Positions 7,426 through 45,297 of a DNA stretch of 64,000 nt are shown piece by piece. The stretch lies in assembly GCA_973895155.1 (NCBI GenBank), contig OZ316896.1:12442549-12506548 (forward strand). The letters run 5' to 3'. The translations under genes and the position numbers were made by a program. Source of the DNA: Marsupella aquatica. Lineage: Eukaryota > Plantae > Marchantiophyta. The notes under the pieces are model-generated. The model was given only the letters and a program-made list of their open reading frames with translations. It searched no databases and was not told where the DNA came from. The first letter of the stretch is position 1, and every line of letters begins with the position of its first letter.

Positions 7426-10400
7426 TCAATCCGCCACCTCAACACTTGGATCGTATACAGGTTGCCGAACAAATTGACCTCGCACACGTGGCCTCTGCTC
7501 TGCAAGTCTTTTTCGACTCTGATATCGCACCTGCAAAAGGAAATTAATGCCACTTGTTAGAGGAGGCAGTCAGAGGAGGCACAACTTGATGTGAACCGAC
7601 GTAACCTGTAAAGAAACTAGCCCACTCAAATTGAAACATAGCAATCGGGCTGACCTTCTTTTCAAAACATCGATCCTTCCTCTTTTGCCTGAACTTGTTA
7701 AGGGCAGCTTCTCTTCGATTGAACCGACTTTGCTCGTGATTATTGACAGCACAATGAGGAGGTCCAGCAGAAGCGTTTCCGTGGATAACAGCACCGTCGG
7801 CCACATTCTCTGCAGGATTGACGGCTGCACTACTGTGTCCATGTTGGTTGTACATATTATTACTGCCTGACCCACTACCATTGACACTTCCATTGCCATT
7901 GCCGGTACTTCCATACCCATTACTACTCCCACTCTGCCAAGTGTTTCCATCTGCCATGTTTGATGAACCACACCCGGGAGCTCCAGATGCCTGGTTTATC
8001 ACAACCTGGTCATCTTGTTGAGATTGCGCAGAAGGTTGACCAAGACGGGTATGGGCCTGCTGTTGTTGATGGTGTGACGAATGATGGAGACCCTGCTGTT
8101 GTTGTTGTTGTTGTTGTTGGTGGTGATGATGTGACGAATGATGAGCAGTGTGTGAACCGGGGTCATGACCATGAGGATGATAAAACACTTGCCCTCGGTC
8201 GGACAAGTGCGTACCTGCGGTGGCCCATGGAGGTGCACCAGAGTAATAAACTTGATGCATCGCCTGTCCATGTCCATATCCCGTGGGCACGCTCTCGTAA
8301 ATCATTCCCCGAGGAGGGAGGGGATTAGAGATAGGACGACCTTGGCCGGACATAGGGGAGACTGAGACAGCCTCATCCTTTACTTGCTGAGAGTAACTTT
8401 CAGGAATGGAAGAGCCGACCCTAGAAGACCCCAAATCTTGACCTTTTCCCTTGTGGGATGCTCTCGGATGAATTGCCTGAGGGTTAGAAGGCCCCTCTCC
8501 GCTACCTTTTGAAGACCCTGCTCGGTCCATGGGCATCGAGAAGTACGCTTGCCCATTACTGCCAGACCCGAGTTGATCAGTCGCCGGAGAAAGCGAATGT
8601 GTCCCATACGCAGCTCCAGCAGGATACCCAGAGAGCGAGAGAGGGGTGCCGCCCGGTATTTGCTGTATCGTTGTACCGTTCGTGCTATACCTGGAATGAA
8701 GAAAACGGATGGTCAGCAACCTTCCAGAATCTGATAATTCTTTGCTCAAGTTGTGCAATCAAATGCAAACTTTTGGAACCATTCTAACAATTGATATCGT
8801 GTGCCGGATGAAGAAAACAGCTTCGAAAGATCTAATAATATGAAGCGCACCAAACAGGCACCTCAATCTGATCAGGACGAATGATCCGCTGGCCAATTAC
8901 ACGAAACAGTACCTCGAAAACGCAGAGCCACCGGAATGCCGGAGAACCCGTTTCTCGTTGCCGTCATCGTCACCGGCAGCACGCGGTCGTTTCAACGATA
9001 GTTCCAGCAGCGGAGGGGAATTCGAGCTTGTCACACACTTGTCGTTCGCAGGACTGTTACTTGCTCCTCTGTCCGAACCTTCCGCCCCTTCACCGCTCTC
9101 GACTCCGTCATCAACATCCTCGTTGTTTTGAAAAGTAATCCCACCGATTAAGTCGATCGCTTCTCCTGCATCGGAATTGCTCCTCTTGTTATCGCTGTTG
9201 CCACTTCTTAAAGGCGAGTCGTCTTGTCTAGCTTCGGCAGCGGCTTGATTGTCGACTTTGGGGGATTGCTCCATGTCCAGAGAAGAGGACCTTCGAGTGG
9301 CCATCTCCAGGTCCTGACCCATTTGATTATCTGTACATGAGACAGAGTACTAAGAGTGGGCACAAAGAAGGAACAGGCCGGCACTAACGAAATTGAGCAG
9401 AACCATCGTAGATGAAGTACGAATATCAAAGTCGATTATCGGAGCATCACAACCCAATGGAGTATACTTGACTAATTGCGAAGGTCAGGCCAGGAACCCT
9501 TTCCAACCTCGAAACCAACCCAGTGACACAGAATCAGATGAATCAACCTGGTACGAGAAAGATGGCGGCCAAGTAAAGGATCAGTAGATAAGGACTTACC
9601 AGACTCCTTTTGCAAAGAGGTAGCCTGACTCTCCTTGACGTCAGGTTTATCTCTCTTTTGCTTATGAAAACCGTGAACAACAGCCTGTACAACGCACGAT
9701 CAAGTTACGGTGCTTGTTAGATGCCCGTCGAGCTTCATATGCCACTAGACATACTAGATCAGAAAATCGCATGCAAGACGACCCGGTGCATATTCTCATC
9801 GCCAGATTCTTCCAGAATCGAGTTAAGCGTCTGCACAAGTAAAATCCACCTATCTCACTGAGAGCTCACGTGAGCTGTGCTAAGTGCATGGAGACCTTTC
9901 CCAAAATTTCTAATGGATGAGCAGAAGGCAGATAACAGAATCAGACACTGAAACTCACTTGTGTGCCACTGCCATTATCACTCCCACCCCGCACGTTCAA
10001 ACCACTGCTGTTATCGTCGCTGCCATCGTTACTGCCAGTGTTGTTGCCCGATCCGACTTTGCTCTTCTGGCGCCCAACTTTCACCCCGTTACCACTGCCA
10101 CTTCCTCCACTACCGCTGCCGCATGACTGAACAGACACAACAGCACAATCGTGGAATAAGAGATCCATCAACCACCTTCTTGTCCGTAATCATTACTCAC
10201 TACGAGTCTACGCCACTGACAATTAAAGTTTCGCTAGACAGATAGAGATCATGGATACGTAAATGTTCAAAGGTACAACCCCTTGTGGCAGCAAGAGGGA
10301 TACTTACGCTTTGGCACCTCCACACATGCTGCCACAAATTTTTGAGCTCGTTCTTCCGGACAGGCTTCACGAGGAAATCGGCGGCTCCCTTCGATAGACA

Positions 10401-12094
10401 TCTAAACACTATGTCGAGAGAGTCGTGGGAGGACATCACTGCAAGCAATGGATCCCGGTCAATACCTTCAACAGCTGCGTTGCAAGTATTATACCAAGAC
10501 ACAAGCGCGCAAGAATCACGCCAACCTCCACATTCAATACTCACGAACCCCTCAGGATTGTAGGAGCTACTCCACAAGATCGCTGCGACTACCTAGCGAG
10601 GGATCTATGAACTCAAGCCAACCCAAAACCTCCATTTCTACAGAGAACCAGAGCATGCAGGGTGGCCAGGAGCTTACTAATGACGGGGATCCTTTTCGCC
10701 GATTCGTTACTCATAATCTTGGATAGTAAGCCGACACCAGAAAGGCAAGGCATCACGACGTCAGTTAAGACCAAATCGAAGTGGTTGTTGGGATCCTCCA
10801 ACATCTCCCAAGCTTGCATCCCATTTGCAACTGCTGAAACTGCAATAATTCCACCAAATCGAGAACACATCAGAACTTGGACATCACAGGATTGCATTCC
10901 ACTTGCAACTAATCGAGTGCAATTCCAGATACGTCAGTTCCTGAGAAACCAGATCCACTCTGTTTCAACCCAGAACACATGGAGTCAGCGTACGGGCATC
11001 GGACGTGGACCAAGGGACCATCTCGTAATATATCGCCGGACAAGCAATCAGCAAACAGCTATCACACCGCGTTGCAAACAGAAATGCAAGACAGCCCGCT
11101 AGGCAAACGGTAAAAACTGGTCTAACAGTACCAAGGTGAGGACCTCGCTACCAAGAAACGAAAGTGGCACTTCGCATGGACACATGCCTCAAAATTAAAA
11201 GAGGAACCTTCCCGCTGAAAGACCCTTCACTTCGGAAGCTGGATACCAACCACATGAGAACAGGCCACAATGCTAAGCAAGTACGAAGCAAAGCCTGTAA
11301 CCCAGGAACCGGCTGTCTGACTTCGGGTCCTGCCAGGGCACCGAGACAGTTTGGAGCAAAACGGGGACAAGGGTAAACAGAGGACCGGAACAGTATCTCT
11401 GAAGGCTCCAGTAAGGAAACCAAGACATACCTTCATAACTGCAGTTGCGGAGAAGCGCGCAAACGACTTGCCTCGTGGAATCATCGTCTTCTGCTAGCAA
11501 CACCTTGATATTACTCCGTGGGAGGAAGCTCTCCCAGCCAACAGGGGAAACGGGGCTCTGGGCTGGTGGCTGGGTGTTATCTTGCTTTGGCTCCTTTCGC
11601 TGCTGAGGTAACTGTTGTGCTGCAGAGGTTTGTTGCTTATGTTGTTGCTGCTGATCCTGCTGTTGCTGCTTACGGCTAGGCTCTGACAGCACTTCAACGA
11701 CGGGCCCATCGCCCTCAACCATATCGTCCTCCGGCTCCTCGTCTCCGTATCCCTCGGACGAAAGTGCTTCGACCTTCCTACTCTCTTTAGACGGTAACCT
11801 CGCCTCACGTTGCATGCCATGAACGGAAGCATCGTGCTTAACCGATCCCGGGCGACCTTTCAAGGCATCCTTAAAACCTGTCGTTAGATCTGCAGTTCCT
11901 CTGTTATCTTTCTCAGAATCCACCACATCTCGTCCCTGCTCTCCCAATTCTATCTCCATGGCCTCCTTCCAGTGCCCGCCCTTGAAATGGTCCCGTTGCG
12001 GAGGCCCCACATCGAAGTCAACTTGGAACCTCTTTTCGGTAGGAGCTTTCAGTGGCCTGGACTCGGTCTCGCCCTCGCTCAAATCTGCAGTCAT
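7426..12094 (-). CDS. PRR: Circadian-clock pseudo-response regulator, PRR7/PRR3-like (receiver domain, EAR-like motif, CCT domain), ~920-940 aa
   Basis: Phase-consistent GT-AG exons: 12094-11431, 10839-10678, 10438-10308, 10126-9959, (9830-9783 optional, weak donor), 9684-9600, 9330-8913, 8690-7655, 7530-7426. Receiver: [26 protein letters not shown]...[14 protein letters not shown]...[21 protein letters not shown]. Also LELSLKR and [13 protein letters not shown]: [43 protein letters not shown]. Confidence 0.95.
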
Positions 12095-13338
12095 CAGAAA
12101 ACTGAATGGACGCCTCTACGGGAAGTAGAAAACTACCAGCTGATACTTAGCTGAACAGGAAGAAAAGTTGCAGCTACCCTGTCGAACCCTGTCCAACACT
12201 AAACCGATATCGAGGAACTCCTCTTGAACTGCGTCGCGTTTCTCGGGACATCCGCTACCGCTCTGATCCCGCCCAATCTCAGTCCCAGACCAACCCAGAA
12301 CACTTCGAAGTGGAGGCGTCAAGCTTTACGAACCTTCTAACCTCCCGTGGCGGATAATTTCGTCCCGAGTGCAGATGAAGCAGGGGCTCGACGGTAGTCC
12401 TAGAGGGTACCCGTCGATTTCAATGGTGTTCGTGTTCACGACTGCTCACTACCCCCAACAAACTCGAAGAAGAACCGTTCAGACTTTGGCCTTGAAATAA
12501 CCTGCAGGAGCGACACGCCTACGATGGGCGGAGAGTCGCTGAAGTCCGAGACGAACGACAAAACTACAATGACCTCCACACCAGACTGAGCTCGGTCAAA
12601 TCAATCGACTTCCACGGCAGAACTCATCAACCACACAACTCGCATGCATTCGCCGTAGAACTTGTCACAGCCAACAAAGCTTGTACAACCCTTTGCAAGC
12701 CAAATCCCTCCAACCGAAACACCAAATCCTTCTCCACTAGTCAATCAACCGACAACAGTCACGGAAACCGCCGATTCCACCACACGCCGGACGAGGCGAA
12801 CACTCGAAGTCGATCCAAACCCGCGAAAAGAACGAAACCAAGACGATCAAGAAGGCGCCGAGCCCGGCTGCAACATCAAGTTTCTTCGACAAATCTTCCG
12901 CGTACAATCGTCAACACTCTAGCTACCTCTACCACCACTACTCCACCACCGTCAAGACGAGTTCGGCTCACGACAACAAGTTTCGTCAACACATCTTCCG
13001 AATACAATCAATCAAAGACCGGCGCATGAAGCATTCCTTCGCTTGAACAGTCACACCGGCGTCGTTGCCTCAGAGAGATGGAGAGGGAGGAATCGAGGAG
13101 AAGAGAGCAGAGGAAAATCGAAGCGGAACCGTCAATGTCGTGAGGCAAGCAACCTCTCGTGCGGCGTCAGGGTGTGAATCATCGATGTTGAATATGTGTA
13201 AATCGTCTACTCCAAGGGCAGAGGTTGCGGGAGGGCCTGAGGCGCCAGGGAGGCAGGGGACTAGGGAAGTCACGGACGGGAGCGAGCCACGGAGGCTTGG
13301 CGGAAATAGATCGGCCGTGGACCTAATCCAGCGCTCTC

Positions 13339-13579
13339 ATTGGTCCAGAAGCGTTCAACTCTGGTAAAATCTGCCACTGGCAAACCTTAACAGACGCCAT
13401 GACTGGCCGGACCCCTAATATCATTCTACTTTCCCCCTCGCCAAATCGATTTCGTGGCTCTCAGCACCCGGCACACCTCAGTCTTGCCTCCCAGCCCTCC
13501 GTTCGGAGCCACGCCAGCATTTCCTACCATATGCTGCCTTCTCATTGGCCCGAAGCTCACGTACCAGCTAAAGATTTTT
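13339..13579 (-). promoter_or_regulatory. Putative PRR proximal promoter with a CCA1/LHY-type site and CCAAT boxes
   Basis: AAAAATCT on the minus strand at 13572-13579, AAAATCT at 13366-13372, and CCAAT (minus) at ~13339 and ~13544. These lie upstream of a CT-rich leader (~13070-13115 on minus). The TSS is not known. Confidence 0.4.
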
Positions 13580-15253
13580 CCGTGGCCGATCCGATTTCGC
13601 CCATTTCCCGCTTTTTGTTACCGTAACAGAGACTTAGGGTTTGGCTTACCGTCTGGTGAAGGTTTCCGTCATACTTGTTTATTTCCATAATATCCGGTCT
13701 GACATGACATAATTCCTCCTCGTAATCCACATTTGTACTGGCAGAAACAAGAACGGCAGCATTCATTTTCAGCTCTTGTGTTCGATCATATCTGGAGTAT
13801 CCACTATTTGTATGGTGACCACTAATCATCATCCCCACTTCGTCAGGCACTCCTCGGGCTGCCATGCGAGTTACTAGAGTGGATCTTCCACTGCGGTTTG
13901 AAAACAGGTCACGAGGCAATCCAACCACACTCAACATATTACTTAGCCACTTTCCAGCCCGTTCCTGTGCAACCTTATGCTTACGATTGTACCACACGTT
14001 GCTCACAGGGTTAGTAATGGGCCCCAAGAAAAGGTCTGGTTTTGTGTCACCCTCCAGAGGAGGCAAATGTCGCAAATACTGTTTCAAACAAATGATAAAA
14101 TCAATCTCATAACTGTAAAACGATTTACGGAATTGTTCTTCATTGTAGCGATCAAGGGAGTACGAATTGTTCTTGCTCTCTCTTTCTTCAAAACTGCAAA
14201 CAAACTGAAATCCAGTCAGATATCAAACAAGCTGAAATCCAGCAAGAAAATGATAAACAAAAACGTCCTATAGAGCCTACGACACTTACTGCACATACTC
14301 TCGTCCCTGCTTGTCACTACACAGCCGAACATCGTGTCTCATCAGGTTGTACAACTCCGAGCCACCTCGAATCCCCAGCCGAACCAAGACAAAGAAGGCA
14401 AGACGCTTCTGGCATCCATGGGGGCTGGTTATTTGATGATCTATATCTGCTAGAACTGCGGTCTCCATTTCTTCCGTAATTATTTCAGCCTGTGAACAAT
14501 AGGATATAGACATCAGAAACAAACATAAAGAACTCAACAATATAGAAACGGATCAAGAAACCTGGCAATAAACTAGAAACAAATAAGAGAACTTACCTTC
14601 TTTCGTTTCTTGTTCACTCCCTCCCGTGCTGATTTCTTGACTGCAGCTTTCAGTACCATTCGAGTCTTTGCAAAAACGGGATGAGAGTTGATATTGAACC
14701 CTTTCTCGATCAGATTACCTTGTCCTCTGACAGACCTGAGATCACTTGCACGTCTAATGATACGGTTGAATGCATTCATCATGTTCATTAGTGTTGAGGA
14801 AGGATACGTGTTACCATCAACCTTGACAGCCCTGGAGAAAAGGTTACTGAGGAGCAAATCGAGCATGTGTAACGGTAAGTCTCCCAAGAAAATTGACGTA
14901 TCCCAATTCAGGGCAGCACGTAGCGAGTCAGCATGTTTCAATGCCCATCGATCATTCTGGTCCGATGGGAGTTTCTCCTCCCCTCTCCCAGCATCAGCTA
15001 GCATTTGATCTGGAACCGATCGTAAACCAGGTATGCTCAGCGAAAGAGAGCTCACCTCCGAGCTTGCTTCACCAAGTGACTCTGTTGAAACCACAGACAC
15101 AGGGACATCATAAACCATTTCCATGTCAATCTCCACGCCCATAACATCCTCGAACTCGTTAAAGAATAGCGCATCTACATTATCTTCGTCCGCACTCAGT
15201 CGATCCAAACTCGCATCCTCATTCACATCATTCACTGCTTCACTTCCTGCCAT
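13557..15253 (-). CDS. Tyrosine recombinase, Crypton/DUF3504-type (N-terminal part and catalytic domain)
   Basis: Exons 15253-14597, 14489-14290 and 14193-13716 are phase-consistent and stop-free (~444 aa). The frame then reads through the 96-bp repeat to a stop at 13557. Motifs: KVDGNTYPSSTL; RLGIRGGSELYNL (catalytic R); EERESKNN (K); VWY; FSNRSGRST (HxxR position, with H replaced by R); ISGHH (H); GYSRY (Y nucleophile). Confidence 0.85.
13622..13717. repeat. 96-bp direct repeat, copy A (putative element 3' terminus)
   Basis: CGTAACAGAG...CATAATTCCT; differs from 15935-16030 at 2 of 96 positions. Confidence 0.95.
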
Positions 15254-15934
15254 AACATGAATTAGACCCGCAATTATGATTGAATATGATGAAACAGGAT
15301 CAAAAGCTTCCAGCAGAGTCATTCCATTGATGGAGTTCGAATGATTCTGAAACAATGAAACACAATCTTAAATATAAACGTAATGCCAGGAAAGGATATC
15401 GCCATCGAGCTTCAATCTTCTTTGATCCATTTGAAATCATCTCCGCAAGTTGATGATTGTCCATCACAAACAGAACCCCGCCAATCAAAGCAAGGACGCC
15501 TCGGCAGCAGCTTGCACTCCCGCTCGCGCCATCGCCAGCAGCTCGTGCCATCCACAAAAACACAAACATCGAGCACACAGAGCACAGTATCGAATGATAG
15601 AAAGCAGCAGCGTGTCGCCGCCTCCTCAAAATACCTAAACTGAAAACCTATGAAACGTTGAATGAGCAGATTGAGCCCGTAGCGCTTCGCTTTGCCCCTC
15701 GACTATTTTGATTCTCGCCCAGTTCTCTCATTGGTGCACCGGCTATTGGGAGTCGCCAAATCCTAACCCTCCGTTACGTCGGGTAATGACGGTTCAGATC
15801 ACCCGTTACCGGGCGTAACCTGCGCTCCCAGGTTCTTCCCGAAGGTTTCCCGGCTCCCGCCGGTCAACCTTCTGTCAGAACTTGGTCGCCCGTTACACCC
15901 TGGTAACGGCTGACTAAACCCTCATTACCCTATA

Positions 15935-16030
15935 CGTAACAGAGGCTTAGGGTTTGGCTTATCGTCTGGTGAAGGTTTCCGTCATACTTGTTTATTTCCA
16001 TAATATCCGGTCTGACATGACATAATTCCT
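15935..16030. repeat. 96-bp direct repeat, copy B
   Basis: 94/96 identical to 13622-13717; continues into ~21-bp CATAAT-periodic repeats up to ~16100. Confidence 0.95.
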
Positions 16031-16585
16031 TACTGAGTTTCATAATTGACTTACGGAATGTCATAATGGGCCTATGGAATGTAATAATCCGCTTACGGAA
16101 ATAGTACGTTCTTGATGCAAATGGCATATTCCGTCCATCCTTGACAGGTGTCCATCCAATTTGAATGTTCCATCCACACAGTCTGAGTTCAATTTAATAA
16201 CTTGATTTTGGTAAGATATTTTGTCGTATGAACTCCATGGATACAGCGGTGGACAAGTACAACACTTCCCAAATATGGGACTTCACAATTTCTCTCCATC
16301 ACATTTGCTTCCGATGAGTAGCGAGCAGCGTTGCAACTCACTGTCCTATGCATATTTTTGTTTGAGGACTCAAAAATACACTCCATTACAATACAGTAGT
16401 TGTATTACTCAGGTCGAAAGACCATCACAGCGTTCAGTAATCTCTGAAATTTGACATTTTATTGAAATCAAAGGGATCATTAGATCATGAATCCTGTGAT
16501 AAAATTGACGGAAAGAAACAATTGATCATCCAGGAAACTCATGGATTGAATCTTGCTATGCAAAAACTGAATCTCCTGAATCACA

Positions 16586-17231
16586 TCAAGTCTCCTTCTT
16601 CGGATCTTTATTCTCCTTATCATCCTTGACAATAAAGGTGATAGTGCAGTTCTCAAATCTATTCCCTGAGAGACTATTGCCAACAGAAATACTAGAACTA
16701 CTAGTGCCTCCACTGAAAGTTCGAGCTGAAAATTCTGGATCGTTCTTGGCAATCCCTGATATCCAGTCGATCTCATCAAATTTCTTGTGCCACTCAGCCA
16801 TCATCCGCTCCTGGTCTATTGTGTCAACAGGTTCAACTGTTTCAAGTGCTTCCTGTAACAGCAAACCACAACAAGGTATGAATACAAGAGCAGAATAAAT
16901 GTAAGGTGTGGATACAAGAGCAGAACAAACACTGAAACAAACTACGAACCTGCTTGCCTTTCTTTGTCTGACTCATTCCTCATCCACTTTACTGCTGCTT
17001 GATTCCTGTCACCAACAACAAGAGTATTAAGCCTCCAAACCGGACAAAAACCAGATAACAAATACAACACAAATATCTAAACATAAGAGACCAGCATACC
17101 TCACATCGTGGGCTGATAACTGAAAGCTGCAGATTTGGTTTCGAGCTGATCTTTTCAATCAGAGGTTTTAACTGTCCCGAGTTTCCAACAACCTTCTCCT
17201 CCACAAATTGCTTGGACACTTCTATCAAGGC
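16586..17231 (-). pseudogene. Displaced C-terminal exons, probably from the Crypton-like YR gene
   Basis: Exon-like blocks 17231-17100 (ALIEVSKQFVEEKV...PRCE|GT), 17005-16950 (needs a 1-nt frameshift) and 16855-16586 (EALETVEP...GNRFENCTITFIVKDD...*). The F-x-N-C-T-I-x-F tail resembles the C-termini of DUF3504/Crypton proteins as I recall them. Confidence 0.55.
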
Positions 17232-19377
17232 GAGGAAACTAAATATACACGCTGTTGAGTCAATTCGTACCCTTACGCCACGCCGTCGGGCCCTCCAGGT
17301 TTCCTGTTGGCGACCCTGTATATTGAGCTGCAAACTCTGCGGCCGCTAAAGTAGTGTCCGTTGGCGGCCTCGCCCAGAAGTGCTAGCGTACTAATAATAA
17401 CTAGGGTTCATTTTGCAGGGGGAGGATTCGGCCGCTAAAATATAGTCAGGGTTTAATAATAACCATGCTAGACAACAGACGTGGCGGACCGAAACCAACA
17501 AAGACAGGTGGATGCAATAACCTATCATTATTATTAGGTCATCACTGTAAGCCATGGCCTCTTGTTTGGGTGGAACGGCCAAAGAAGATCATTCATTAAT
17601 AAAGCTATCCGATAATCCAAAAGGCACCACTGCGGGCTGGGCAGATATTTCCATGGATATGATGACTACAACCAATTAATTAAAGAAAAGCAGACTACCC
17701 TAGTCGGAGCATCTATGGTATTGTGAAATGGTTTAGCTCATGGATAGAAAGGACATTTGCCTGCTGGATCCAGCCTGCCAGCTTGTCCTCGTGAGGGCTA
17801 GGGCCTGGGGGATTCTAAATGATGTTTTGCTTTGAGCAGCTCCTGTAAAAGAAAACATTGCTGGTAACAAAAGAGTGCAACGGTTTCTGATGCACAAGTG
17901 TGAAGTTTTTGAGGGCAAAAAAAGTACCATTTGGAGCCTTTGTTCCCTTTGAACCAGGGGAAAACCTCACCTGAGCAACCGCACACCTGGTTGGGCAATG
18001 TGGGTGGGGGGAACCCAACTCTATTACAAAGCACCACAAGGCCAGGCCAGGCCAGAGCCAGGAAGCCACCCACCATATTGTGAGTCCCTAGAATAGTTAG
18101 GCACTTGATTCTGCAACCACGGTCTCCAATTTAAATGTAGTTAACGAGGTCAGTAACTTACCTGTAGATAATGATAGGCACTCTGTAACAACTGGAAAAC
18201 CTGGAAACGTTTTGGCAAACTCTTATCTAGAAAAATATATAACTGAGGGTCTTCCAGACAATACTTTGCCAAAAGCTTACAGGAGACAACAAGGTTCCAA
18301 GCAATTCCAATGGATCTAGCATTTCCTTCCCCCTCTTTCCTTCCCTTCATTAGGTTTGCTTTGTCTTTGGGATCATGTCTCCCTGTTTGGGTTTTTTTTT
18401 GCCCTTGGGCATTGTGTTATAGAGCACTTTCTGAGCTCCCAGAAACCAACCATTTATGTGCATGAAAGATACTGAAAATGGTACATCCAGGTTACATTGG
18501 TCCATAGCAGTGTTCACTCAAATGTTGTGATCTATCAGAGCTTTTTCTCCCACTAAAAAAACTGCTCAAAGGCGCTTTTTATTCTTCTCGTATCCTATTA
18601 ATTTAATAGCACTCTACATGTTGTTAATAAGAAAGGATTTTTTTCCTGGGGTTAAGTGGATGTGAGGCCGAGCAGAATTTTTCCCCATCTTTTCATTCGA
18701 CAACACATTATTTTTATTCGCAGCGGAGATTTTGACGTCCGGGAGGATTGTTTCCTTCGTTTCCATTGGGCAATATCGTGAATCTCGACTATCGTTTGTT
18801 CTTTACACAGTCCCGATCCAATCGGGAATCAATGGGGCCCGCCAAGATATTCTGAACTGATCGACTCAAGTCGTCGGACCCTGCGGACTCAGCTCAGCCA
18901 AGCGAATCCAGTACCGAAGGGCCCTCATCCTTTTACACTTACGTCTACAGAGAAATTTACAATTATAATCGCCACGTGTCCTTGCTTTCACGGCTCCCGG
19001 CCCGGACCTGACGGCTGCCGTCGGGAACTCGCCACATCTACGACTTTGAACTTTGCAGCTTGGTGAGGGAACATAATGATGTAGTTCTAATAAACATATA
19101 TAAACCTAGTTGTATATTGTATATCATTGTGTATCACGACAAAATATACAGGGAGCACCCATACGGACCGCAAGGCATGTTATTCTTGTTTTTCGGTGGT
19201 GGGGGGTGTGGGGAAAGGGTGGTGGTGATGGTGCTGCTCAAAAGAAGGCATTTGTTTAGCGAGTTGGATTCACTCTTAGAACATTTGATTTCACATTTAA
19301 AATAACGATTCTTTAAAAACATATTAATTGAGGAGAAGAATAAATATCTGTCTGACAAAGCAAGATGGGAATCTACG

Positions 19378-21499: not shown

Positions 21500-22955
21500 C
21501 TTTCACAATAGCACCTTGGGACATACATTGCCTCAATATCTTTGCCTCAACTTGACAATTTTTCTCGCCTTGACATATTTTTCTCAGCTTGACATATTTT
21601 TATCTCCTTGAGATATTTTCCTCACCCCAATGTTCTTTTCAATCTCACATTGACATCTTTTTCTCACCTTTCCATCTTTCCTTTAGCTCTGCACCTTTTT
21701 TCTCCTCAACATCTTTTATCACCTCAGCAGTTTCTCATGCACCTTGATATATTTTCGCTTCCTGGCATCTCTACTCATCTCAGCATCATATTTTCATAAT
21801 TTTCACATTTTTTTTCTCTCATGTACATGATTTTCTCACCTTAAAATCATTTTCTCACCTTGACATTTTTTTCTCTCATTTAACATTTTTCTCACCTCAA
21901 CATCTTTTTCTCTCCTCGACATATTTTTCTCATCTCAGCATCTTTTTATCTCCTCGATATCTTTTCCTCACCTCAATGTTTTTTTCTCACCTCAACATCT
22001 TCTGGGCAACGCATGGGCATTGGGCTATTTGAATATATATATATATATATATATTGTGCCAAAATAATGAGACTTCACACCCATAAACTATGACAAATAT
22101 TTATATGGTTTTTCATCACAATTGTCTCACAAAATTTGACTCCCAAAGAAAGCCTTGGAAGCAAAGCAAAGAGGGGGAGAGGCAAGGAGAAAGGGGAGGG
22201 GGGGCACATGGATGAGAAAAGAGGGAGGGAGAGGCTTCATCTTGCCCCATCTGGTCGCAGGTAAGGGGTGGAAAAAGTGTCAAGTTTATTTTCTCACCTC
22301 AAAATCTATTGCTTTACTTTACATCTTTTTCTGCTCAAAATCTTTTTCTCTTCTTTGCACACGTTTCTCTCCTCAACATCTTTTGTTCACCTAGACATAT
22401 TTTCTCTCCTCAATTTTTTTCTCATCTCAACATCTATTTCTCTCCTCAATATCTTTTCTCTCCTGGACATATGTTTATCATTTGGACATCTTTTCTCTCT
22501 TTGACATCTTTTTCTCTCCTCTACTTCTTTTATCACCTCAACATCTTTTCCTCACCTCGACATTATTCTCACCTCGATATCTTTTCTCTCCTCAACATCT
22601 TTTCGCTCCTTGACATCTTTTATCGCCTCGACATCTTTTCTCTCCTTGACATCTTCTATCACCTCGACATCTTTTGCTCACCTCGACATCTTTTCTCTCC
22701 TGGACATCTTCTATCACCTCGACATCTTTTGCTCACCTCAACATCTTTTCTCTCCTCGACATCTTTTATCACCTCGACATCTTTTCTCTCCTCAACATCT
22801 TCTATCACCTCGACATCTTCTATCACCTCGACATCTTTTGCTCACCTCAACATCTTTTCTCTCCTCGACATCTTTTATCATCTCAACATCTTTTCTCTCC
22901 TCGACATCTTTGTTCACCTCGACATCTTTCGTGCAACGCATGGGCATTGGGCTAG
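21500..22955 (+). mobile_element. Non-autonomous Helitron with ~18-bp CT-rich minisatellite and two tandem 3' termini
   Basis: Ends in CGTGCAACGCATGGGCATTGGGCTAG|T (22930-22956), a plant Helitron-type subterminal hairpin followed by CTAG and T. A degenerate earlier terminus GCAACGCATGGGCATTGGGCTAT lies at 22006-22028. Internal arrays of (TC)ACCTCGACATCTTTT units. The 5' boundary is approximate. Confidence 0.75.
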
Positions 22956-34416: not shown

Positions 34417-37315
<2,899 letters not shown>

Positions 37316-38092
37316 AGCTGCTCGTGGGGACGAGGACAACGAGAACTACCACAACGACGACGACGATGGTGCTCGCAGCAGAGAAGCGAAATCCTATTCC
37401 CTCCGTCACAAGAATGGATGTGGAAAACCTGGGGCTGAATTTGACAAGAAGATATTTGGTGCAAGAGGAGAGGGGAGACGGGAGGGAATCGTGTCGGGAC
37501 GATGGAGTGTAGGGTAGCGTGATCAGGAGAGGTGGCGGAAGAAAAGGTATACCGTCGGATCGATATATTCGCCCGTTTTTCCACACGTCACGGTTCTGGT
37601 CGCCTTTACGGTACGACTGCTTGGCCTTGAAACTTCTGTCTCGTCGGTTTTCTTCCTTCTCATAAATGTACAAAAACACCATCGAATGAGAAAAGTGAGA
37701 CGGGACAAAAGAACCAGGTCTTTTCGTTTAGGGCCAAGGTGGCGAATGTCACCTTGGATGTACGAGATTATGCCAAGAATATCCTGTATCTATTTTTTAA
37801 TTTATTTTCAAACAATGTCACCATGCCATTATTTTATTTTATTTTATTTTATTTTTATTATTTTTATTTTTTCATAGAAAAGCAGGGCGAACACCCAAAC
37901 AGCCAAACACCCGTCTGAGTCCTGTATCTACTTTTGCCAAAGGTAATTTATGGCCCTTCGATCTCCCCAGATTTTCCTAGATTTGAGTATGATTGGCAGA
38001 TTCTGGCTAATGGTGCTGGTTAATAGGGCGTGTCAAAGCAGGGGACCTCACTTACATCCAAAGATATAAAGTGCTTTTAGATATAGGATAAT

Positions 38093-40493
38093 TATAAATG
38101 CTAAATAGTATATACACACTTTTTATATACAAAGGGACCAATCAGAGTACAAATGAACAAACAAAAGAGGGCCCAGGTGAACAAAACCAATCGAAAAAGA
38201 AGTGAACAAAAGGGAACCACTAAACACCAAGAAAGAAGAACTAAAAGTAAGAAATGAGCAATAGGGAACCCCTAAAAACCAAGAAAGAGAGACTAAAACT
38301 AACCCAAGCGGACCGAGGTCCTCATCATTCCTAGCGAATGTGGCAAAAAGCTACTGGTCCACATCAAGGGTCAAAGCTAGATCGGCAAGTGGGATTGGAA
38401 CATCCTCTAGGGGAGCTAGCCGTTGCGGAGGCACAATAGCACCCACTATAAGAGATCGACGATAGATGGCCCGAGCTTGAGCACACTGCAAGGTGACTGA
38501 AATGCGTTGGCGAAAGTGCGTGGTCAAAATAGAAAGCGGGGGTCCGGTGGGACCCATGCGGCCATGAACATCCCGGGCAGCTTGCCGAAGAAGCCCATCA
38601 AACTAGGGATGAAGACGCCCAAATAGCTCCAGAGCAAGGGGGAGGAAGCTGTCGAATGAAGCTCGTGCAACATATTTGGCCTCCTTCGTTGTTGCCGCAC
38701 GTGACGCTGCTGCCCTTGCCGTAGTTGCCGCTGTCCCAATGATGTCTTGGCGCAATGGGTTTGCCACCACTACATCTGCCAATGTACGTTGACCCTCACG
38801 GACCATGGTAAGATCCACCCGTAACCGCTGTGATGGAGGACCAGGTAACTCGAGTACCACCTCCCGCCGCACGCATACCAAAGAGCCAGAGAGAACCTGA
38901 GCAGTCGCATCTCGCACAGCGTCGTGAACAATAATGGTTTCACCTCCCAAACTGCACCGAAGAAGATGGACACCTGTGGCATCACAAGGCTTCCCACAAG
39001 TGCAAGAAGGGGGTAAACCTGCAAGAAGTGGGTGGGGCAGCCCCATACGAAGACGCATGGCTGTGGAGAACTCCGTTGAAGACATCCGCAAATGAGGAAT
39101 GACTGGATTGGCCTGAAGCCATCCACCTGCGCCCTTCCCTCCGAAAGAAAGAATCCGAGCTTGGTCCGTGTCAGGTGCCTCGGAGAGGATGCTGGAAAGG
39201 GTGAAAGTGTGCATACGCCCATCGAGGTCTGCCTGAAGACGAACGGGATCCAAGGATAAAAACTCCTGAAAATAAGGTAACGCGGCGCGAACGGGATCTG
39301 GTAATGAGGACCACGCTGCGCGCAAATGAACCTGAAACGGGAGGGAACCCTCCTCTACCTCCATGAGAGATGAAAGTAAAAAAGGGCGATCCTCAATAAG
39401 AAAATGATCGGCCAACAATGAGAAGGCGGCCGCCCACGCACCCAAAAAGGCCAAAGGTGCAAGGCTCTCAATGGAAGTAAGCCCAAAACCACCATGCGAA
39501 ATAGGAAGACTGAGTTGTCGATGAAGCCACGGAGATGAGAGCAACGTACCCGGCCCCAAAAGAGAGGCCAGGGTCTGATGAATGGAGACATCAAATGCTC
39601 GAAGGTGGAGACAAAGATCCTCGGTAGGGGGATGCGTCCTAGCCAGATAAGACGCACGATGGTGGATGCACCTCAACAACATCCCAAATGTTGCCTGAGA
39701 ATCTGCTAACTTAGGGAGCATAGGAGTAGAGGCTAAGGCAGCCTGTAGAGAGTCAGCGATGAAAGAGGAGCAAAAGGAGGCGGTACCGACTGGGGAGCCA
39801 AGGACCCGAAGACCATCGGCTGGACGTAAGAACCCTGGGGGAAGTGCAAGATCAGAGGGTAACCCAGCTGGACTCCATGCACGACTCTTCACAGGCTGAA
39901 CTCGTAAACCGAGGCCCATCAAATGGGTGGAAAGAGTGGCGAGGGCAGAAGTAACCGCGGCAGGAGGACCAATGATGTGGGTGTCATCTGAAAGGGAGGG
40001 GAAGATACACTGGGGGTGGGCCATGGCGGCTTCTCGTAAAGCTGTAAAATGGGCAATGGCAAAAAGAGGCCCACCCAAAGGGTCACCCTGACGAGTACCT
40101 TCTGCAGAGGAAAGAGTGGTATACACACCTGTAGAGGAGTGATGACTATAGAAGAGTGGGGCCTCGAGTCCATAAAAACAACGGACAAAGGGGATCAGGG
40201 ACTAGATGTCTAGATCTGCCGCCCTCAAAGCACGAAAAATGGCTGCCCGAGAAACCGTATTAAAAGCGTTAGAGACATCAACTTGGAGGACAACCCAATC
40301 AGGGTGGAGGTCCAAGGTAGCTCAAATACCCGCAATAACTGTCTCACAACCGCCAGGAACGCCAACTGCAAACTGATGTGGAGAGAGATGATCCGATAGT
40401 GCAGAGCGAAACTGCGAGGAAAGTGTGCGAGACACAAGCCGAAGAAAAACCTCCCCAATAGCAATTGGCAGAACACCCGGTGAAGACTTAGCC
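38093..40493 (-). mobile_element. 5'-truncated CRE-like non-LTR retrotransposon (RT, CCHC, restriction-like endonuclease)
   Basis: 12-bp TSD ATATAGGATAAT at 38081-38092 and 40494-40505. Motifs in one frame: PIAIGEVFLRL, QFAVG, DVSNAFN, GTRQGDPLG, SLSDD, LRVLGSPVG, LPISHGGFGL, CTCG...HLLRC, HDAVRD, RVDL...LADVVV, KEAKY, FLPLALELFG. Confidence 0.9.
38351..40493 (-). pseudogene. RT-RLE ORF of the CRE-like element, broken by three in-frame stops
   Basis: A single frame runs from ~40493 to the stop at 38351. It contains TGA at ~40322 and TAG at ~40202 and 38603; no frameshifts were seen. Confidence 0.85.
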
Positions 40494-42640
40494 ATATAGG
40501 ATAATGGAGGTCTGGTTTGGGGTACCAGGAAATGAATAAAACTTGGCCTGACTCCGGGAGGCTAGAACCCCACACCAGACCTCCTTCCTAGTACATAATA
40601 TCTGCACAGAAAAAGGTTAGCTCAGGCAACAGATTATGGGAATAGCAGGTGACTTCCCAACTGGTTACATGCTGGTAACCTACATTTGGTACAGAATTTA
40701 AGGTCAAAACAAAAATGTCAAAGGCTACCTACTGTACATATGTGCCTCATAAGGATGGTACATCCAAAAAGCCCCATCCATAAGACCTTGCTTAGTGTAG
40801 TGCTCTAACATGCCCTAATGGAACACAAAAAGATGACCATTTTTTGCACAAAGTGGCCCAGACTTTCCAGTGAGGTGAAATTTGGCATTCTTGGCCAGTA
40901 AAAGAAAGTTGATGAGAACCATGAGACAATGAAAAGTGGACTACTATCGTGTCTTTTACCAAAAACATGGCACACACCTTGTATTCAAAAATCCAAAAAA
41001 ATGGACCTTTCTGTGAAAAGTGGTTTTGGTTCAAAACAACCCTCTTGTATTCAAAAATCTATTAGACAACCGAGGCAGTGTGTTCAAATGTGAACCCTAG
41101 GCGTATAGCAAAGTTTTGTTTACAGGGCAATGCTGGATAAAATGCCCCCCAAAAAGTAGTAAGTGGACCCTGCCATCTTGTCTTCCCTTAGTGATTCTTA
41201 AATTCAATCATAGAGACAGGTCACTGGAAATATCTTAAATGTTTGTATCAACGTTGTGGTTTCATGGAGCAACCTGGGAAATGAAGCCCATATAATTGGG
41301 CTCATTGTATATCTGGACCAGCGCTTAAGATATTGTTTGAGGTTGTTTGAACAAAACCCATTTTATTTTCATTTATTTTGTTTTATTTTGTTATTTTTTT
41401 AAATTTAAAGTGCAAATCTGTGAAACCCCACAGAAAGGGAAGAGTCAGTTACAACATTTGAACCCAAGACTTAAACCCTAAACCCTAAAATACACAGCCA
41501 TGCCTCTCTGGGCTCATAAAGTGGTTTATTGACTAGAGCCAAACCCATTGTAAGAGAGGCACTAATGGGGACTGAACTGGAGAGCAATTGCTATGAAGTC
41601 CTAGAGTAAAACTCTGGTCAAGATCATCCAGGCAAGCTTTCAAACAATGATCTCCTTATCCAAAATATAGCTTTTTGCTAGGTCATAGTAATAGTAGTTC
41701 TGAATGTGGTGGGAAAGATCATGGCACCCAAACAATCACATGTATCATACATGGCTTGGCAATATAATCATGGTCTGGTCCCGGGTCTGGTCTTTAGATT
41801 TCAACAGGGGTTTCAAGTGTCCACTTGGTTAATGAATGTTCAAAATGTTGGCAAATACAGTACCAAGCGCAAGTATTGGAAGGACAGTCAGTAAAAAAAA
41901 AAAAAGCCCCCAATTTCACTGGAAGCACCAGATTTGTGTTCAATTATGGAACCCCAAACCCATTTTTTGTGTTGGTTGTAACCCCAGGTGGTATCTTCAT
42001 CCAAACCTCTGAACTTGGGAGCAATCCTAAAATATTTTTGGTATCAAAGTCACAATTTATTGTTCTATAGCCAATCTAACCACTACAACATGCAATCCTG
42101 ACATGAGAAGATTGTCTGTTTACAAAATAAAAAGAGAAGTAAATGATTTTATGCCATCACATTCTCTAGACAGTCTGACTCTCAAAGGACCACTAAGACC
42201 CTTTGAAGCTTTTGAGAATTATGCAAAACTTTTGCCCTTGGATATGATCGATTAACAGACGCAATCAAGCGTTGGTGTGACGGGTACCCCGTCACGGGAA
42301 GTCACACATAACTGGTTGCAAAGGCCGATACCTTGTTAATAGTCAATGTAAATAAGCCATTTTTTAATTTTTAGTTAATTCCGTCATTATAGGTTGATGA
42401 TGCCCCAGGTGACTTTATATTCTTTCTCTCATAATAGTTCTAAGATTTGCGGCGACCTAAGTGGGCAAATATTTTGGGACCTTGAAACTAGCCAGGACCA
42501 GCCCCATAGGACTTACCGTTTTGCTTCAAGAGCTATTGTTGAGACCCCCATTGCAAAGTCAGGAGAGGGGGGGGTTTTTTTTTTTAAATAAATCCCTCCT
42601 CAGGAGGGCGAGTCCCATTAGTGGCCGTCCGAGAGAAAGA

Positions 42641-43010
42641 GGGGCTGCCTCGCGAGCCCATAGGGCTGCGTGCCCGGGCGATTAATGGGGCTCCGCGAGC
42701 TGAAGGGGCTGCCTCGCGAGCCCATAGGGCTGCGTGCCCGGGCAATTAATGAGGCTCCGCGAGCTGAAGGAGCGCAAGCGAGCGGGGGGGGGGGAGTTAA
42801 AGGGCCTCCCGCGAGCTGGGAGGATCACGCGAGCGGGGGGGAGTTAAAGGGCCTCCCGCGAGCTGGGAGGATCACACGAGCGGGGGGGAGTTAAAGGGCC
42901 TCCCGCGAGCTGGGAGGATCACGCGAGCGGGGGGGAGTTAAAGGGCCTCCCGCGAGCTGGGAGGATCACGCGAGCGGGGGGGAGTTGAAGGGCCTCCCGC
43001 GAGCCGGGAG
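42641..43010. repeat. GC-rich tandem arrays: 2 x 65 bp followed by 5 x ~47 bp
   Basis: GGGGCTGCCTCGCGAGCCCATAGGG... occurs twice, and GCGAGCGGGGGGGAGTTAAAGGGCCTCCCGCGAGCTGGGAGGATCAC occurs about five times. Confidence 0.9.
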
Positions 43011-43440
43011 GAATGGCCGCGCGCCCTGCATAGGGCCGCGCGCAGGAGGACGCAAGGGTAAGGCCCGAGAAATGGGCCGGGGCGCATGGCGAAGGCGCCA
43101 GGAGTTTTTTCGGTTCTATTTTTTTTTTTTTTCCTTCCTTTTTCTTTCCCTCTTCCTTTTGCACGACCCTCTCATTGCCGAAAGCAAAAACGGGGTTCTT
43201 CTCTCTCTTGCCGGAAGCTCTCTCCAGATTCTAATTATTTTTGAAGCTCTCTCTTTCATGGTGGATTAGTGGGGCTTGCTGGCGTCATTCTTCCAGGCAT
43301 TAGTGGCGGCCGCACGGAGTAGTGACGGGAAATTGAGAGAATTTAAGTGATCGGGCTACGGGGGCTGTTTCGGGCCAGGGAATTGACATTGCCACGGGTG
43401 ACGGGATTGGTGATTGAGAAATTGATTTCGGGATGCATGG

Positions 43441-45297
43441 ATGCTAGATCAACCAGAGTTTAGTGCGTCACGCATTCGGAGATACAAGGCTGCTTACCGT
43501 GACTACGTGGAGACTCGGATTACACGGGAAAGGGAAGAGAGAGAAGTTATGATGAGCACGGGATTGGCAGCGGGTTCCTCACCGGTGGGTAGGAAGATTT
43601 TTCGTCGAATTTATCCCAAGACCTCCACCAAGGTGATGGAGGATTGTCGGAACATTTTCCAAGCCACCGGGCTTACAGAATTCATGAAGGTGGAGATTAC
43701 CATCCCTTCAGGGAAGAGCTGGGACATTGAGGCCGGGATGGAGTTCCGAACGGAGGGAATCTACTTTGAATGTCTCAAACGTGTAGTGCCCCATGTGGAG
43801 TTGGCTAAGCTATTGTTTCTTGAGAATCAGAAATTCTCATTCACACCTCGGAATATCAGGGGAGAACTCACGTTGAAAATGGTGGCCACTTGGGTGACCA
43901 ATCCTACCTCCACCACCGCCATCCCTCTTTCTGCTGTCAAGGATGTTGAGTATAAGGGCTTCCTGGCCAAGGTGCATCAACGGGTTCTTGGCAACGTGCA
44001 ATCCGGAGTGCTGAATGAGGAGCATTTCGTGGTAGCTATGGACATCAAGAACTACCCAGCCCATGTGTACGGATGGTGGTGCTACGGATTGAAGAAGCTA
44101 TTGGCCGCTGAGCCCGGGAGTGTGAAACCAGGTGGGGCTGTACATTTGATGGGGTCATTTGTATTGGCCAGGGCAGAAGGGTTGATTGGTTCTCCGGGGC
44201 ATGAAGACACGGGATCATCTCTCACCACGGAGATCCGGAGTATTGCCACTACCGTTTTAGGGAAGCTCACGGAGGAATCATTGTCTGCTGGTGGGGAGGA
44301 TAATAGAGAAGAAGAGAACCAGGAGGATGATTGCACATTGGAGTGGCTTGAATCACTCGTGGGAGATCCGAAACAGCCTCTGGAATACAACATTCCGGAT
44401 GTTTACTTGGCAGAGCTACGGGATTTCAGAGAGGGAGTCCACGAGGGACTCAAGCTAGTCCACGCATTGAGGGAGTCTCTCAAGCACGCCACAGTCAAAG
44501 TAGAGACGTTAGAGCAGAGCATCCTGTCACTGAAGGAGGTGATCAAGACCAAGGAGCAGACCATTCATGAGAAGGTCAGGCACATCAATGCAGCTCACGT
44601 AGAGATCACCAACTTGAAGGGAGCTTTGTCCACCAAGGCCAAGGAAGCAGAAGAAGTAGGAGCGTTGAGGCAAGCATTGGCCAAAGAGAAGCAAAATTCT
44701 GGAGAAGTGATGGAGTGGAGGAACCAGGTGGGAGCACTACGGAGTCAGGTGGCAGCCTTTGAGACACGAGCGAAGAGAAGTGAGGCCCTGAGTCTAGGGA
44801 AACGGAAGAGTCCCGGCACACCTGGCTCCACACTTTCCCCGGATGTGATCTCCCAAGCTATCGAGATGGTGGTGAAGGAGGTTAGTGGGAAGTATGGACC
44901 CTTGTTGGATGGAGCCAAGAAGAGTCAGGAGAAGAGTAAGAGCTTGGAGAAGAAGCTCCGGGAGGTACGGAAATCGTTACGGGAGGCTCAGGTCAGTACG
45001 GGGATGCCACCCAGGTCTGTCACCCCCGGGACTCCCATGGCCACGGGGCAAGTTCTACCGTTGGAGTTGCGGTCCGGAGAAGAGGCTACCCTCTGGAAGG
45101 ACACAATTGGTGAGGGGTACATCAAGGCGTGGCAGGCCTTGGCTGCTTTGAGGAAGCGCGGGAGCAGCAGCACTAAGAGTACTCCGTCGAAGAAGAAGAA
45201 AAGTACGGTGGCACTCACTCCCGTGAGTGATGAGGAGGAGGACCACTCACGGGGCACAAGTCCGGGCACCGAGAGCGAAGAAGAAGAGGAGGATTAG
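43441..45297 (+). CDS. Intact 618-aa intronless ORF of unknown function (globular N-half, long coiled coil, basic NLS-like and acidic tail); probable retroelement accessory protein
   Basis: Uninterrupted 1857-nt ORF. Heptad-rich segment ~aa 325-450 and ~490-515, SKKKKS near the end, and a terminal ESEEEEED. No RT, integrase, protease or CCHC motif recognised. Confidence 0.7.
   Translation: MLDQPEFSASRIRRYKAAYRDYVETRITREREEREVMMSTGLAAGSSPVGRKIFRRIYPKTSTKVMEDCRNIFQATGLTEFMKVEITIPSGKSWDIEAGMEFRTEGIYFECLKRVVPHVELAKLLFLENQKFSFTPRNIRGELTLKMVATWVTNPTSTTAIPLSAVKDVEYKGFLAKVHQRVLGNVQSGVLNEEHFVVAMDIKNYPAHVYGWWCYGLKKLLAAEPGSVKPGGAVHLMGSFVLARAEGLIGSPGHEDTGSSLTTEIRSIATTVLGKLTEESLSAGGEDNREEENQEDDCTLEWLESLVGDPKQPLEYNIPDVYLAELRDFREGVHEGLKLVHALRESLKHATVKVETLEQSILSLKEVIKTKEQTIHEKVRHINAAHVEITNLKGALSTKAKEAEEVGALRQALAKEKQNSGEVMEWRNQVGALRSQVAAFETRAKRSEALSLGKRKSPGTPGSTLSPDVISQAIEMVVKEVSGKYGPLLDGAKKSQEKSKSLEKKLREVRKSLREAQVSTGMPPRSVTPGTPMATGQVLPLELRSGEEATLWKDTIGEGYIKAWQALAALRKRGSSSTKSTPSKKKKSTVALTPVSDEEEDHSRGTSPGTESEEEEED

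What the first reader, a model, noticed from the sequence alone, without database searches (positions are those of the whole stretch)
13622..17231. The recombinase gene looks circularly permuted: a possible fossil of an excised circle that re-inserted
Seen: on the minus strand the order is [ALIEVSKQFVEEK...FENCTITF...stop, 17231-16586], [96-bp repeat], [inverted-site cluster/promoter], [ATG...YR...STNVDYEE, to 13716], [96-bp repeat]. Joining 13716 to 17231 gives an in-frame GAT TAC GAG GAG|GCC TTG ATA GAA, i.e. ...VDYEEALIEVSKQFVEEK, which reads as one amphipathic helix. The extra repeat joins the YR through a 3-nt AGG microhomology. Established: Cryptons are proposed to move through circular intermediates. 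Inference: a ~3.5-kb circle was opened inside its own gene and captured, so the gene's 3' part now precedes its 5' part. Re-circularisation would restore the gene order. An alternative is a truncated head-to-tail dimer.
Basis: partly seen in the sequence, partly recalled or inferred. Interest (0 to 1): 0.88.

Follow-up and report, generated by a model that had tools for sequence, protein, structure and literature searches.

The report
Fossil circle of a Crypton transposon
A plant chromosome carries one whole copy of a young recombinase transposon with its two ends joined in the middle and its gene's tail placed before its head, likely a cut-out DNA circle that broke and was patched back in by accident, which would be a sequence trace of the circular step long proposed but not yet shown for these transposons.

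Summary
The permutation is real. 17231-16586 is the tail of the tyrosine-recombinase gene that stops at 13719: 11 of 11 relatives hitting both halves have them one residue apart, and all four runs laid hold sister copies joined 13719-AAA-17231 (DYE-K-ALIE, not DYE-E-ALIE; the AGG microhomology is not supported). The family's two ends both map to 15935, so the internal site there is an exact end-to-end joint (ATTAC-7 bp-GTAAC), and the 96-bp repeat is the element's true 3' end. The insert is one 3,516-bp unit less 3 bases, plus a second 3' end; an empty site lacks it and keeps 19 more host bases. Best reading (0.68): an excised monomer circle, broken once inside its gene, captured by end-joining at a site where a normal-looking 3' junction was made. 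A one-off accident, not a split-gene programme: all other copies seen are colinear. A deleted dimer needs two breaks within 3 bases (about 0.2%). Short contigs cannot phase the joints, and no free circle was seen. The scan noted a similar order in another genome, judged there a misassembly; here the joints recur in contigs of public runs.

The parts
17230..17231 (-). Left host junction: 2-nt overlap (GC on the minus strand) between host DNA and the start of the gene tail; 19 host bases of the empty site are missing here
   Evidence: colinear joint starts at 17231, empty-site joint resumes at 17230 with 19 letters between (run X3, one contig, depth 46.9, 30 letters on the short side); X1 contig 17202-18800 with 0 differences
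16586..17231 (-). 3' part of the recombinase gene (C-terminal tail); predicted exons 17231-17100, 17005-16950, 16852-16586. The 56-nt middle exon has an in-frame TGA here; copies in runs X3 and X5 are 7 letters longer there
   Evidence: searches (GT-AG introns, translation; blastp to P0001 562-585 and 643-710), 15 table 4 (7 letters put in behind 16975). Exon model inferred, no RNA
16017..16100 (.). Four 21-bp tandem repeats near the 3' end; the inner edge of the 96-bp repeat (16030) lies in them
   Evidence: a role as recombinase or accessory binding sites is a guess
15935..16030 (-). Inner copy of the element's last 96 bp (true 3' terminus)
   Evidence: contigs of other copies leave the sequence before 15934-15935 in X1, X2, X3, X4
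15924..15940 (.). End-to-end joint of the 3' and 5' termini (shared C at 15935), reading ATTAC-CCTATAC-GTAAC on the + strand: two inverted arms around a 7-bp spacer
   Evidence: 5' ends of other copies leave behind 15933-15935; one 87-letter contig 15906-15992 with 0 differences crosses the joint in 4 of 4 runs at single-locus depth
15773..15907 (.). Three further paired GTTAC...GTAAY sites inside the 5' end (15773, 15805, 15892; spacers 5, 5, 6)
15254..15934 (-). 5' end, presumed promoter and leader
   Evidence: position between the mapped 5' terminus and the first codon used in the model; not tested
13719..15253 (-). 5' part of the recombinase gene; predicted exons 15253-14597, 14489-14290, 14193-13719; holds the whole Cre-like fold and the motif residues R 14369, K 14174, R (for H) 13895, R 13886, H 13817, Y 13790. 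Start codon uncertain
   Evidence: relative P0001 residues 210-553 align to Cre, Z 19.0, rmsd 5.2, 292 aligned, and the break falls at P0001 559-561
13718..13718 (-). One extra base at the joint between the gene and the outer 3' end
   Evidence: this joint also seen as a loose end behind 16030 in X1 and X2
13622..13717 (-). Outer copy of the last 96 bp, ending on the family's terminal base; 3-nt overlap (13622-13624) with the empty site. The gene frame reads through it to a stop at 13557
   Evidence: 2 differences from the inner copy; X1 contig 12800-13662, 0 differences; empty-site joint at 13624

Best explanation
This is one complete unit of a young Crypton-type transposon lying in circularly permuted order, with its 3' and 5' ends joined exactly at 15935, and it likely arose when the element's recombinase cut a copy out as a single circle, the circle broke once inside the gene, and end-joining repair patched the linear piece into a break at a site where a recombinase-made 3' junction likely already existed or was forming. 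Shown: gene order in sister copies, termini, the joint, unit length, empty site, short overlaps at the host junctions. Inferred: that the joint was made on a free circle; that the three missing bases were lost at the break; that the 96-bp outer end is the remnant of a normal or aborted insertion at this spot (it ends on the terminal base, and the empty site continues C-GTG, like the C-ATG seen after other 5' ends); that repair was end-joining. It is an accident that happened once and was inherited, not a life-cycle step.
For: Sister copies join 13719 to 17231 with 3 letters between in 4 of 4 runs (255 letters on the short side in X3 and X5, 30 in X1 and X2). 11 of 11 proteins hitting both halves have one residue between them. 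Loose ends on both sides cluster at 15933-15935 in 4 of 4 runs, so the joint is end-to-end to the base and has recombinase-site layout (layout as described in PMC3212892). 3513 of 3516 bases present once: one cut in a monomer circle gives this; two independent deletions would meet within 3 bases about 0.2% of the time. Empty site with 19 extra host bases and 2- and 3-nt overlaps, no target duplication. The joint contig has single-locus depth in X1 (21.5 against 19.3-21.9 in the flanks), so there is no sign of arrays elsewhere in that run. Order flips with 1-3 nt scars are the accepted sign of circular intermediates in segmental duplications (PMC7450558).
Against: No free circle was seen; the joint is seen only at single-locus depth, and in X3 and X4 it is most simply the same locus, since X3 holds a window-like and a more diverged haplotype (table 8). 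The element's own 3' end resembles its target, so insertion of one copy into another's end would make the same joint. The extra 96-bp end needs a second molecule or a copying step that the sequence does not specify. Short contigs cannot phase the four private joints on one molecule (the 68 letters 15963-16030 are shared by all copies), and three of these joints are crossed with only 30-31 letters on the short side (30 at 15935 and at 17231, one short of the tool's bridging rule). The empty site rests on one contig in 1 of 4 runs and may come from the diverged haplotype. The two 96-bp copies differ at 2 sites, more than the few differences per kb between the window and the X1 contigs in the body would predict.
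Confidence: 0.68

Rival explanations
1. A head-to-tail dimer (one copy inserted into the 3' end of another) later lost the first copy's 5' part plus 19 host bases and the second copy's tail.
For: The element's 3' end (CGTA on +) resembles the inferred target (C-R-T-G), so self-insertion is plausible; it explains the outer 3' end on the terminal base and the 2 differences between the 96-bp copies.
Against: Both deletions must end within 3 bases of the same point of a 3,516-bp unit (about 0.2% if independent); no second joint or array depth in X1; nothing site-like at the break.
Confidence: 0.12
2. Replicative repair (template switching, MMBIR/SDSA-type) copied once around an intact circle or a stalled recombinase intermediate, entering and leaving at 2-3 nt overlaps, with no physical capture.
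For: Short overlaps at both host junctions and a slip-like extra base at 13718; one pass round a circle ends at its own start; PMC7450558 says such scars cannot separate end-joining from template switching.
Against: Needs three switches, one landing on the terminal base; still requires the circle, so it changes the repair step, not the main claim.
Confidence: 0.12
3. The window's order is an assembly or phasing error that mixes a 5'-truncated copy at this locus with a rearranged copy elsewhere.
For: The contig graph allows another path through the shared 68 letters; an earlier similar note in another genome was judged a misassembly (e1-9567803, unchecked).
Against: The window has no N; all four private joints exist in X1 contigs, three are seen in X2, and the end-to-end joint in 4 of 4 runs; the other path puts the two breaks 3 bases apart at unrelated loci, which is less likely still.
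Confidence: 0.05
4. A programmed split-gene integration, as in archaeal SSV-type integrases whose recombination site lies inside their own gene.
For: Tail-before-head order of a tyrosine recombinase gene is what such elements leave (PMC7253208 abstract).
Against: The family's ends map to 15935, outside the gene; sister copies are colinear through the break; no paired arms at the break; bases are lost on both sides.
Confidence: 0.03

Closest known systems
Crypton DNA transposons (Kojima and Jurka 2011, PMC3212892, passages; CryptonA/DUF3504 side, cf. Glomhoppers PMC13465315, passages; active CryptonF-1_cRei, PMC9977147, passages)
   Same: Small element with only an intron-bearing tyrosine recombinase gene, no long terminal repeats, sharp ends, empty sites, insertion near a gene; relatives hit DUF3504 and Phage_integrase weakly, profile hits QRICH1.
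   Different: This copy is permuted and keeps the end-to-end joint; terminal direct repeat is 1 base for certain, at best an imperfect 4; the H of H-x-x-R is R; nearest named relative is from the liverwort Calypogeia fissa (70% over exon 3).
Starship circular intermediates (bioRxiv 10.64898/2026.09.21.753150, abstract and passages)
   Same: Eukaryotic tyrosine-recombinase element whose 3' and 5' ends are joined in a circle; the joint lies upstream of the recombinase gene.
   Different: There rare free circles were read directly and tested; here the joint is fixed in a chromosome, in a 3.5-kb element, and activity is untested.
Circular-intermediate duplications and translocations with flipped order (human cSDPs, cattle translocations; PMC7450558, abstract and Discussion)
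   Same: A-B becomes B-A on reinsertion, with 1-3 nt overlaps and small indels.
   Different: Those circles are closed by chance end-joining of host DNA; this one is closed at a transposon's own termini on a recombinase-type site, and carries an extra terminal piece.
SSV-type suicidal integrases of archaea (PMC7253208, abstract)
   Same: Recombinase gene found in two pieces after integration.
   Different: There the site is inside the gene and the split is the rule; here the site is outside the gene and the split is seen once.

Membership tests
Crypton | Encodes a tyrosine recombinase and no reverse transcriptase or DDE transposase | tested here: met
   Only two frames of 150 aa or more in the unit, both recombinase exons; relative P0001 folds like Cre (Foldseek E 1.6e-6; Z 19.0, rmsd 5.2, 292 aligned); Atlas neighbours at 0.97 carry Phage_integrase/DUF3504 on 10-61% of members. 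The fold was predicted for the relative, not for the window's own protein.
Crypton | Catalytic tetrad R-H-R-Y | tested here: inconclusive
   R, R, Y (and K, second H) present by motif; the H position is R here and in P0001, and K in 42 of the 68 of 140 proteins that show the motif. Positions assigned by motif, not by superposition.
Crypton | No terminal inverted repeats or long direct repeats; interspersed copies with sharp ends and an empty site | tested here: met
   Ends at 15933-15935 with unlike flanks in 4 of 4 runs; empty site in X3; only 5-bp inverted arms at the ends.
Crypton | 4-6 bp direct repeat at both termini | tested here: inconclusive
   One shared C is certain; CGTA against C-ATG/C-GTG is suggested by consensus flanks of low agreement (0.54-0.63). 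Whole single insertions could not be read.
Crypton | Moves through an excised circle (proposed, not shown, PMC13565253 passage) | tested here: inconclusive
   Exact end-to-end joint found, but only in the chromosome at single-locus depth.
CryptonA (DUF3504) subgroup | DUF3504-type recombinase, clustering with CryptonA | tested here: inconclusive
   4 of 11 relatives list DUF3504 at E 4.4e-5 to 0.062, all under the curated cut-off; P0001 and the window's pieces hit nothing. No tree was built.
SSV-type suicidal integrase | Recombination site inside the integrase gene; every integrated copy is split | tested here: not met
   Ends lie outside the gene; colinear copies in 4 of 4 runs.
Circular-intermediate reinsertion (order flip) | One unit in flipped order with short scars at the opening and at the acceptor site | tested here: met
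   3513 of 3516 bases, 3 lost at the opening, 19 lost from the host, 2-3 nt overlaps; plus an extra 96-bp end not part of the usual pattern.

The most novel reading that the evidence does not exclude
The joint at 15935 is the frozen circle junction of a Crypton, and because it sits upstream of the complete recombinase fold, between a true 5' end and a true 3' end (15935-13622), the accident built a 2.3-kb element locked in the 'circle state': if, as reported for Starships, joining the ends raises recombinase expression, this locus would be a standing chromosomal source of recombinase beside a clock-type response-regulator gene.
Probability: 0.15. Interest if true: 0.85.

Novelty: new variant of a known kind. 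Interest (0 to 1): 0.66.

Why it matters
A 2026 review states that Crypton transposition has not been shown experimentally and that the circle is a proposed model (PMC13565253, passage). This locus gives, from sequence alone, the exact ends, the joint a circle should carry, a candidate recombination site and a young, polymorphic family in a land plant, so the model can be tested directly: look for the same joint outside this locus in circle-enriched DNA, or give the site and enzyme to a reporter. It also shows a way such elements are scrambled when a transposition intermediate is caught by repair. It is one event, so it supports the circle model rather than proving it, and order flips through circles are known in general.

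Tried and rejected
No whole genome is held for this window, so copies were studied through contigs of public runs only; no RNA holder listed, so exons and expression are untested. Self-BLAST of the window found no second copy besides the 96-bp repeat. Pfam found nothing on the five element frames given nor on P0001. My first exon borders were off by one base and gave false stops; corrected. AGG microhomology and the DYEE join rejected. SSV-like programmed split rejected. Spread of the shortened 15935-13622 unit: no sign, the shared terminal stretch has about three copies' depth in X1 and X2, but depth of short contigs is noisy. A search with a host protease exon did not name the host lineage. 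The bacterial promoter scan is not meaningful for a plant. Scan look-ups by sequence and place gave nothing. Paper searches listed no title or abstract start describing a permuted Crypton, a Crypton circle junction or a bryophyte Crypton family; I saw listings only for most, the library lacks most subscription journals, Goodwin 2003 was not read, and Repbase and supplements were not seen. PMC9940879 (passages) was not relevant. Tables of both read-laying runs were cut (161 and 6 loose ends, 546 and 37 pieces not shown), so other breakpoints may be hidden.

Full report
Setting. The window is eukaryotic, intron-rich plant DNA with no N. The finding lies just upstream, on the same strand, of a gene with a response-regulator receiver and a CCT motif, a pseudo-response-regulator by that pair of domains (label from my own knowledge). 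No whole genome is held, so evidence on other copies comes from proteins and from contigs of public runs.

The gene. The 5' part has three predicted exons (15253-14597, 14489-14290, 14193-13719) with GT-AG introns and no stop. A search with exon 3 among longer proteins gave 2 hits of 350 candidates, both from the liverwort Calypogeia fissa (P0001, 70% identical); a search of all cluster representatives gave 139 hits. A model of P0001 from a 25-row alignment matches Cre and other tyrosine recombinases (Z 19.0, rmsd 5.2, 292 aligned over residues 210-553). The window's break falls at P0001 559-561, so the 5' part holds the whole Cre-like fold. Motif residues R, K, R, H and Y are present; the first H is R, and is K in 42 of the 68 proteins that show the motif. 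Relatives hit DUF3504 only below the cut-off; the alignment profile's best solved relative is QRICH1 (E 0.0037).

The tail is the same gene. Of 140 proteins held, 11 hit the first tail exon, all 11 also hit exon 3, and in all 11 exactly one residue lies between the halves. P0001, P0002 and P0050 also hit the last tail exon. Laying four of the five listed runs on 12800-18800 shows the joint 17231 to 13719 with three letters between in 4 of 4 runs: sister copies read DYE-K-ALIE. In this copy the middle tail exon is 56 nt and has a stop; copies in X3 and X5 have 7 more letters there, which gives a multiple of three.

The ends. Laying X1-X4 on 15780-16090 shows contigs leaving the sequence behind 15933-15935 (5' ends; 3 to 5 contigs per run in the rows shown, some from a diverged subfamily) and before 15934-15935 (3' ends; 1 or 2 per run, one of them this locus's outer copy in X1 and X2). 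So both termini map to 15935, and the window carries them fused, sharing one C. The fused site reads ATTAC, 7 bases, GTAAC, the layout of a tyrosine-recombinase site (inverted arms around 6-8 bp, PMC3212892 passage; the matching arms here are only 5 bp). Three more paired arms lie within 165 bp. One 87-letter contig with no differences crosses the joint in 4 of 4 runs (depths 21.5, 54.2, 35.6, 40.1), with 30 letters on the short side. In X1 that equals flank depth. X3 holds both a window-like and a more diverged flank haplotype (table 8), so the joint in X3 and X4 is most simply this same locus, inherited, and not an independent circle. The 96-bp repeat is the element's last 96 bases, and the outer copy ends on the same terminal base.

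The site. X3 has a contig joining 13624 to 17230 with 19 letters between: the empty site. It gives a 3-nt overlap at the right junction, a 2-nt overlap at the left, 19 host bases lost and no target duplication. It is one contig in 1 of 4 runs; X5 has no cover at the right flank. After the shared C the empty site continues GTG, and the consensus after other 5' ends begins ATG (low agreement), so the right junction looks like a normal insertion of a 3' end into a preferred target; the left does not.

Mechanism. The insert is tail, 3' end, joint, 5' end, head: 3,513 of the 3,516 bases of one unit, each once, then one extra base and a second 3' end. One cut in a monomer circle yields exactly such a piece. 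A dimer would need two deletions meeting within 3 bases (7/3516, about 0.2%). I therefore favour a broken circle captured by end-joining in a gap that runs from 19 bases into the host to 96 bases inside a 3' end left by a normal or aborted insertion (0.68). Copying round a circle by template switching (0.12) and a deleted dimer (0.12) remain; a phasing error (0.05) cannot be excluded with short contigs, although all four private joints are in X1 and three are seen in X2; X1 may be the window's own source. A programmed split (0.03) is contradicted by the colinear copies. Few differences separate the window from X1's contigs in the body (3 letters and 2 gaps over three contigs of 3,432 letters), so the event is young, yet old enough to be shared by runs of two studies.

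Consequences. Excision between the real ends would remove 15935-13622 and leave the tail, so the gene order is not restored by the element's own route. That 2.3-kb stretch has both termini and the whole recombinase fold, read through to a stop at 13557. Whether it is expressed or mobile is untested. For Starships, joining the ends is reported to raise recombinase expression (bioRxiv 10.64898/2026.09.21.753150, abstract); the same could hold here, which is the bold reading.

What is known. Cryptons are proposed to move through circles (PMC3212892, passages); PMC13565253 (passage) says the mechanism has not been shown experimentally; clean excision and target use were observed in Chlamydomonas (PMC9977147, passages). 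Order flips through circles are known for host DNA (PMC7450558, abstract and Discussion). Against novelty of the host range, PMC4438587 (Table 2, passage) lists Crypton among superfamilies found in all groups studied, land plants included. My searches listed no permuted Crypton or Crypton circle joint, within a library that lacks most subscription journals. The scan noted a similar order in another genome, judged a misassembly there (e1-9567803; not checked, and no sequence look-alike was returned).

Verdict. Observation real with corrections; a new variant of a known kind; interest 0.66 because it hands over the ends and joint needed to test a 20-year-old model, tempered by being a single accident with the circle inferred.

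Noticed in passing
window 12115 to about 7500, minus strand; 13579: Gene with a response-regulator receiver (10613-10933) and a CCT motif (7544-8758), pseudo-response-regulator-like. The element sits in its upstream region; an AAAAATCT motif (clock-factor site, label recalled) lies at 13579, 43 bp from the insertion.
   Followed up: partly
window 15808-15935 and 15889-15935, in runs X1-X4: Diverged relatives share only the 5' terminal 47-130 bases, and a second subfamily about 85% alike is also colinear through the break: more than one Crypton lineage in these genomes.
   Followed up: partly
window 12800-18800, run X3: Two flank haplotypes at similar depth, one identical to the window and one about 90% alike (table 8): a hybrid, polyploid or mixed sample.
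   Followed up: no
window 18227-18427: Short high-copy repeat (summed depth 89-1627 against 3-80 in the flanks), absent from one haplotype in X3 and X5 (joint 18273-18423).
   Followed up: no
window 21546-22929: Degenerate 18-19 bp tandem arrays rich in T and C.
   Followed up: no
window 38603-40201, minus strand: 532-aa frame that looks like the end of a non-LTR retroelement reverse transcriptase with a restriction-like nuclease tail (recalled from motifs; no Pfam hit).
   Followed up: partly
window 42640-45297: 64-bp and 47-bp near-perfect tandem repeats ahead of a 623-aa coiled-coil-like frame with no clear Pfam family.
   Followed up: partly
window 50629-51300, plus strand: DDE_Tnp_4 nuclease frame (E 4.4e-22), Harbinger-like.
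   Followed up: partly
window 36752-37345, minus strand: First exon of a papain-type cysteine protease with the I29 propeptide.
   Followed up: partly
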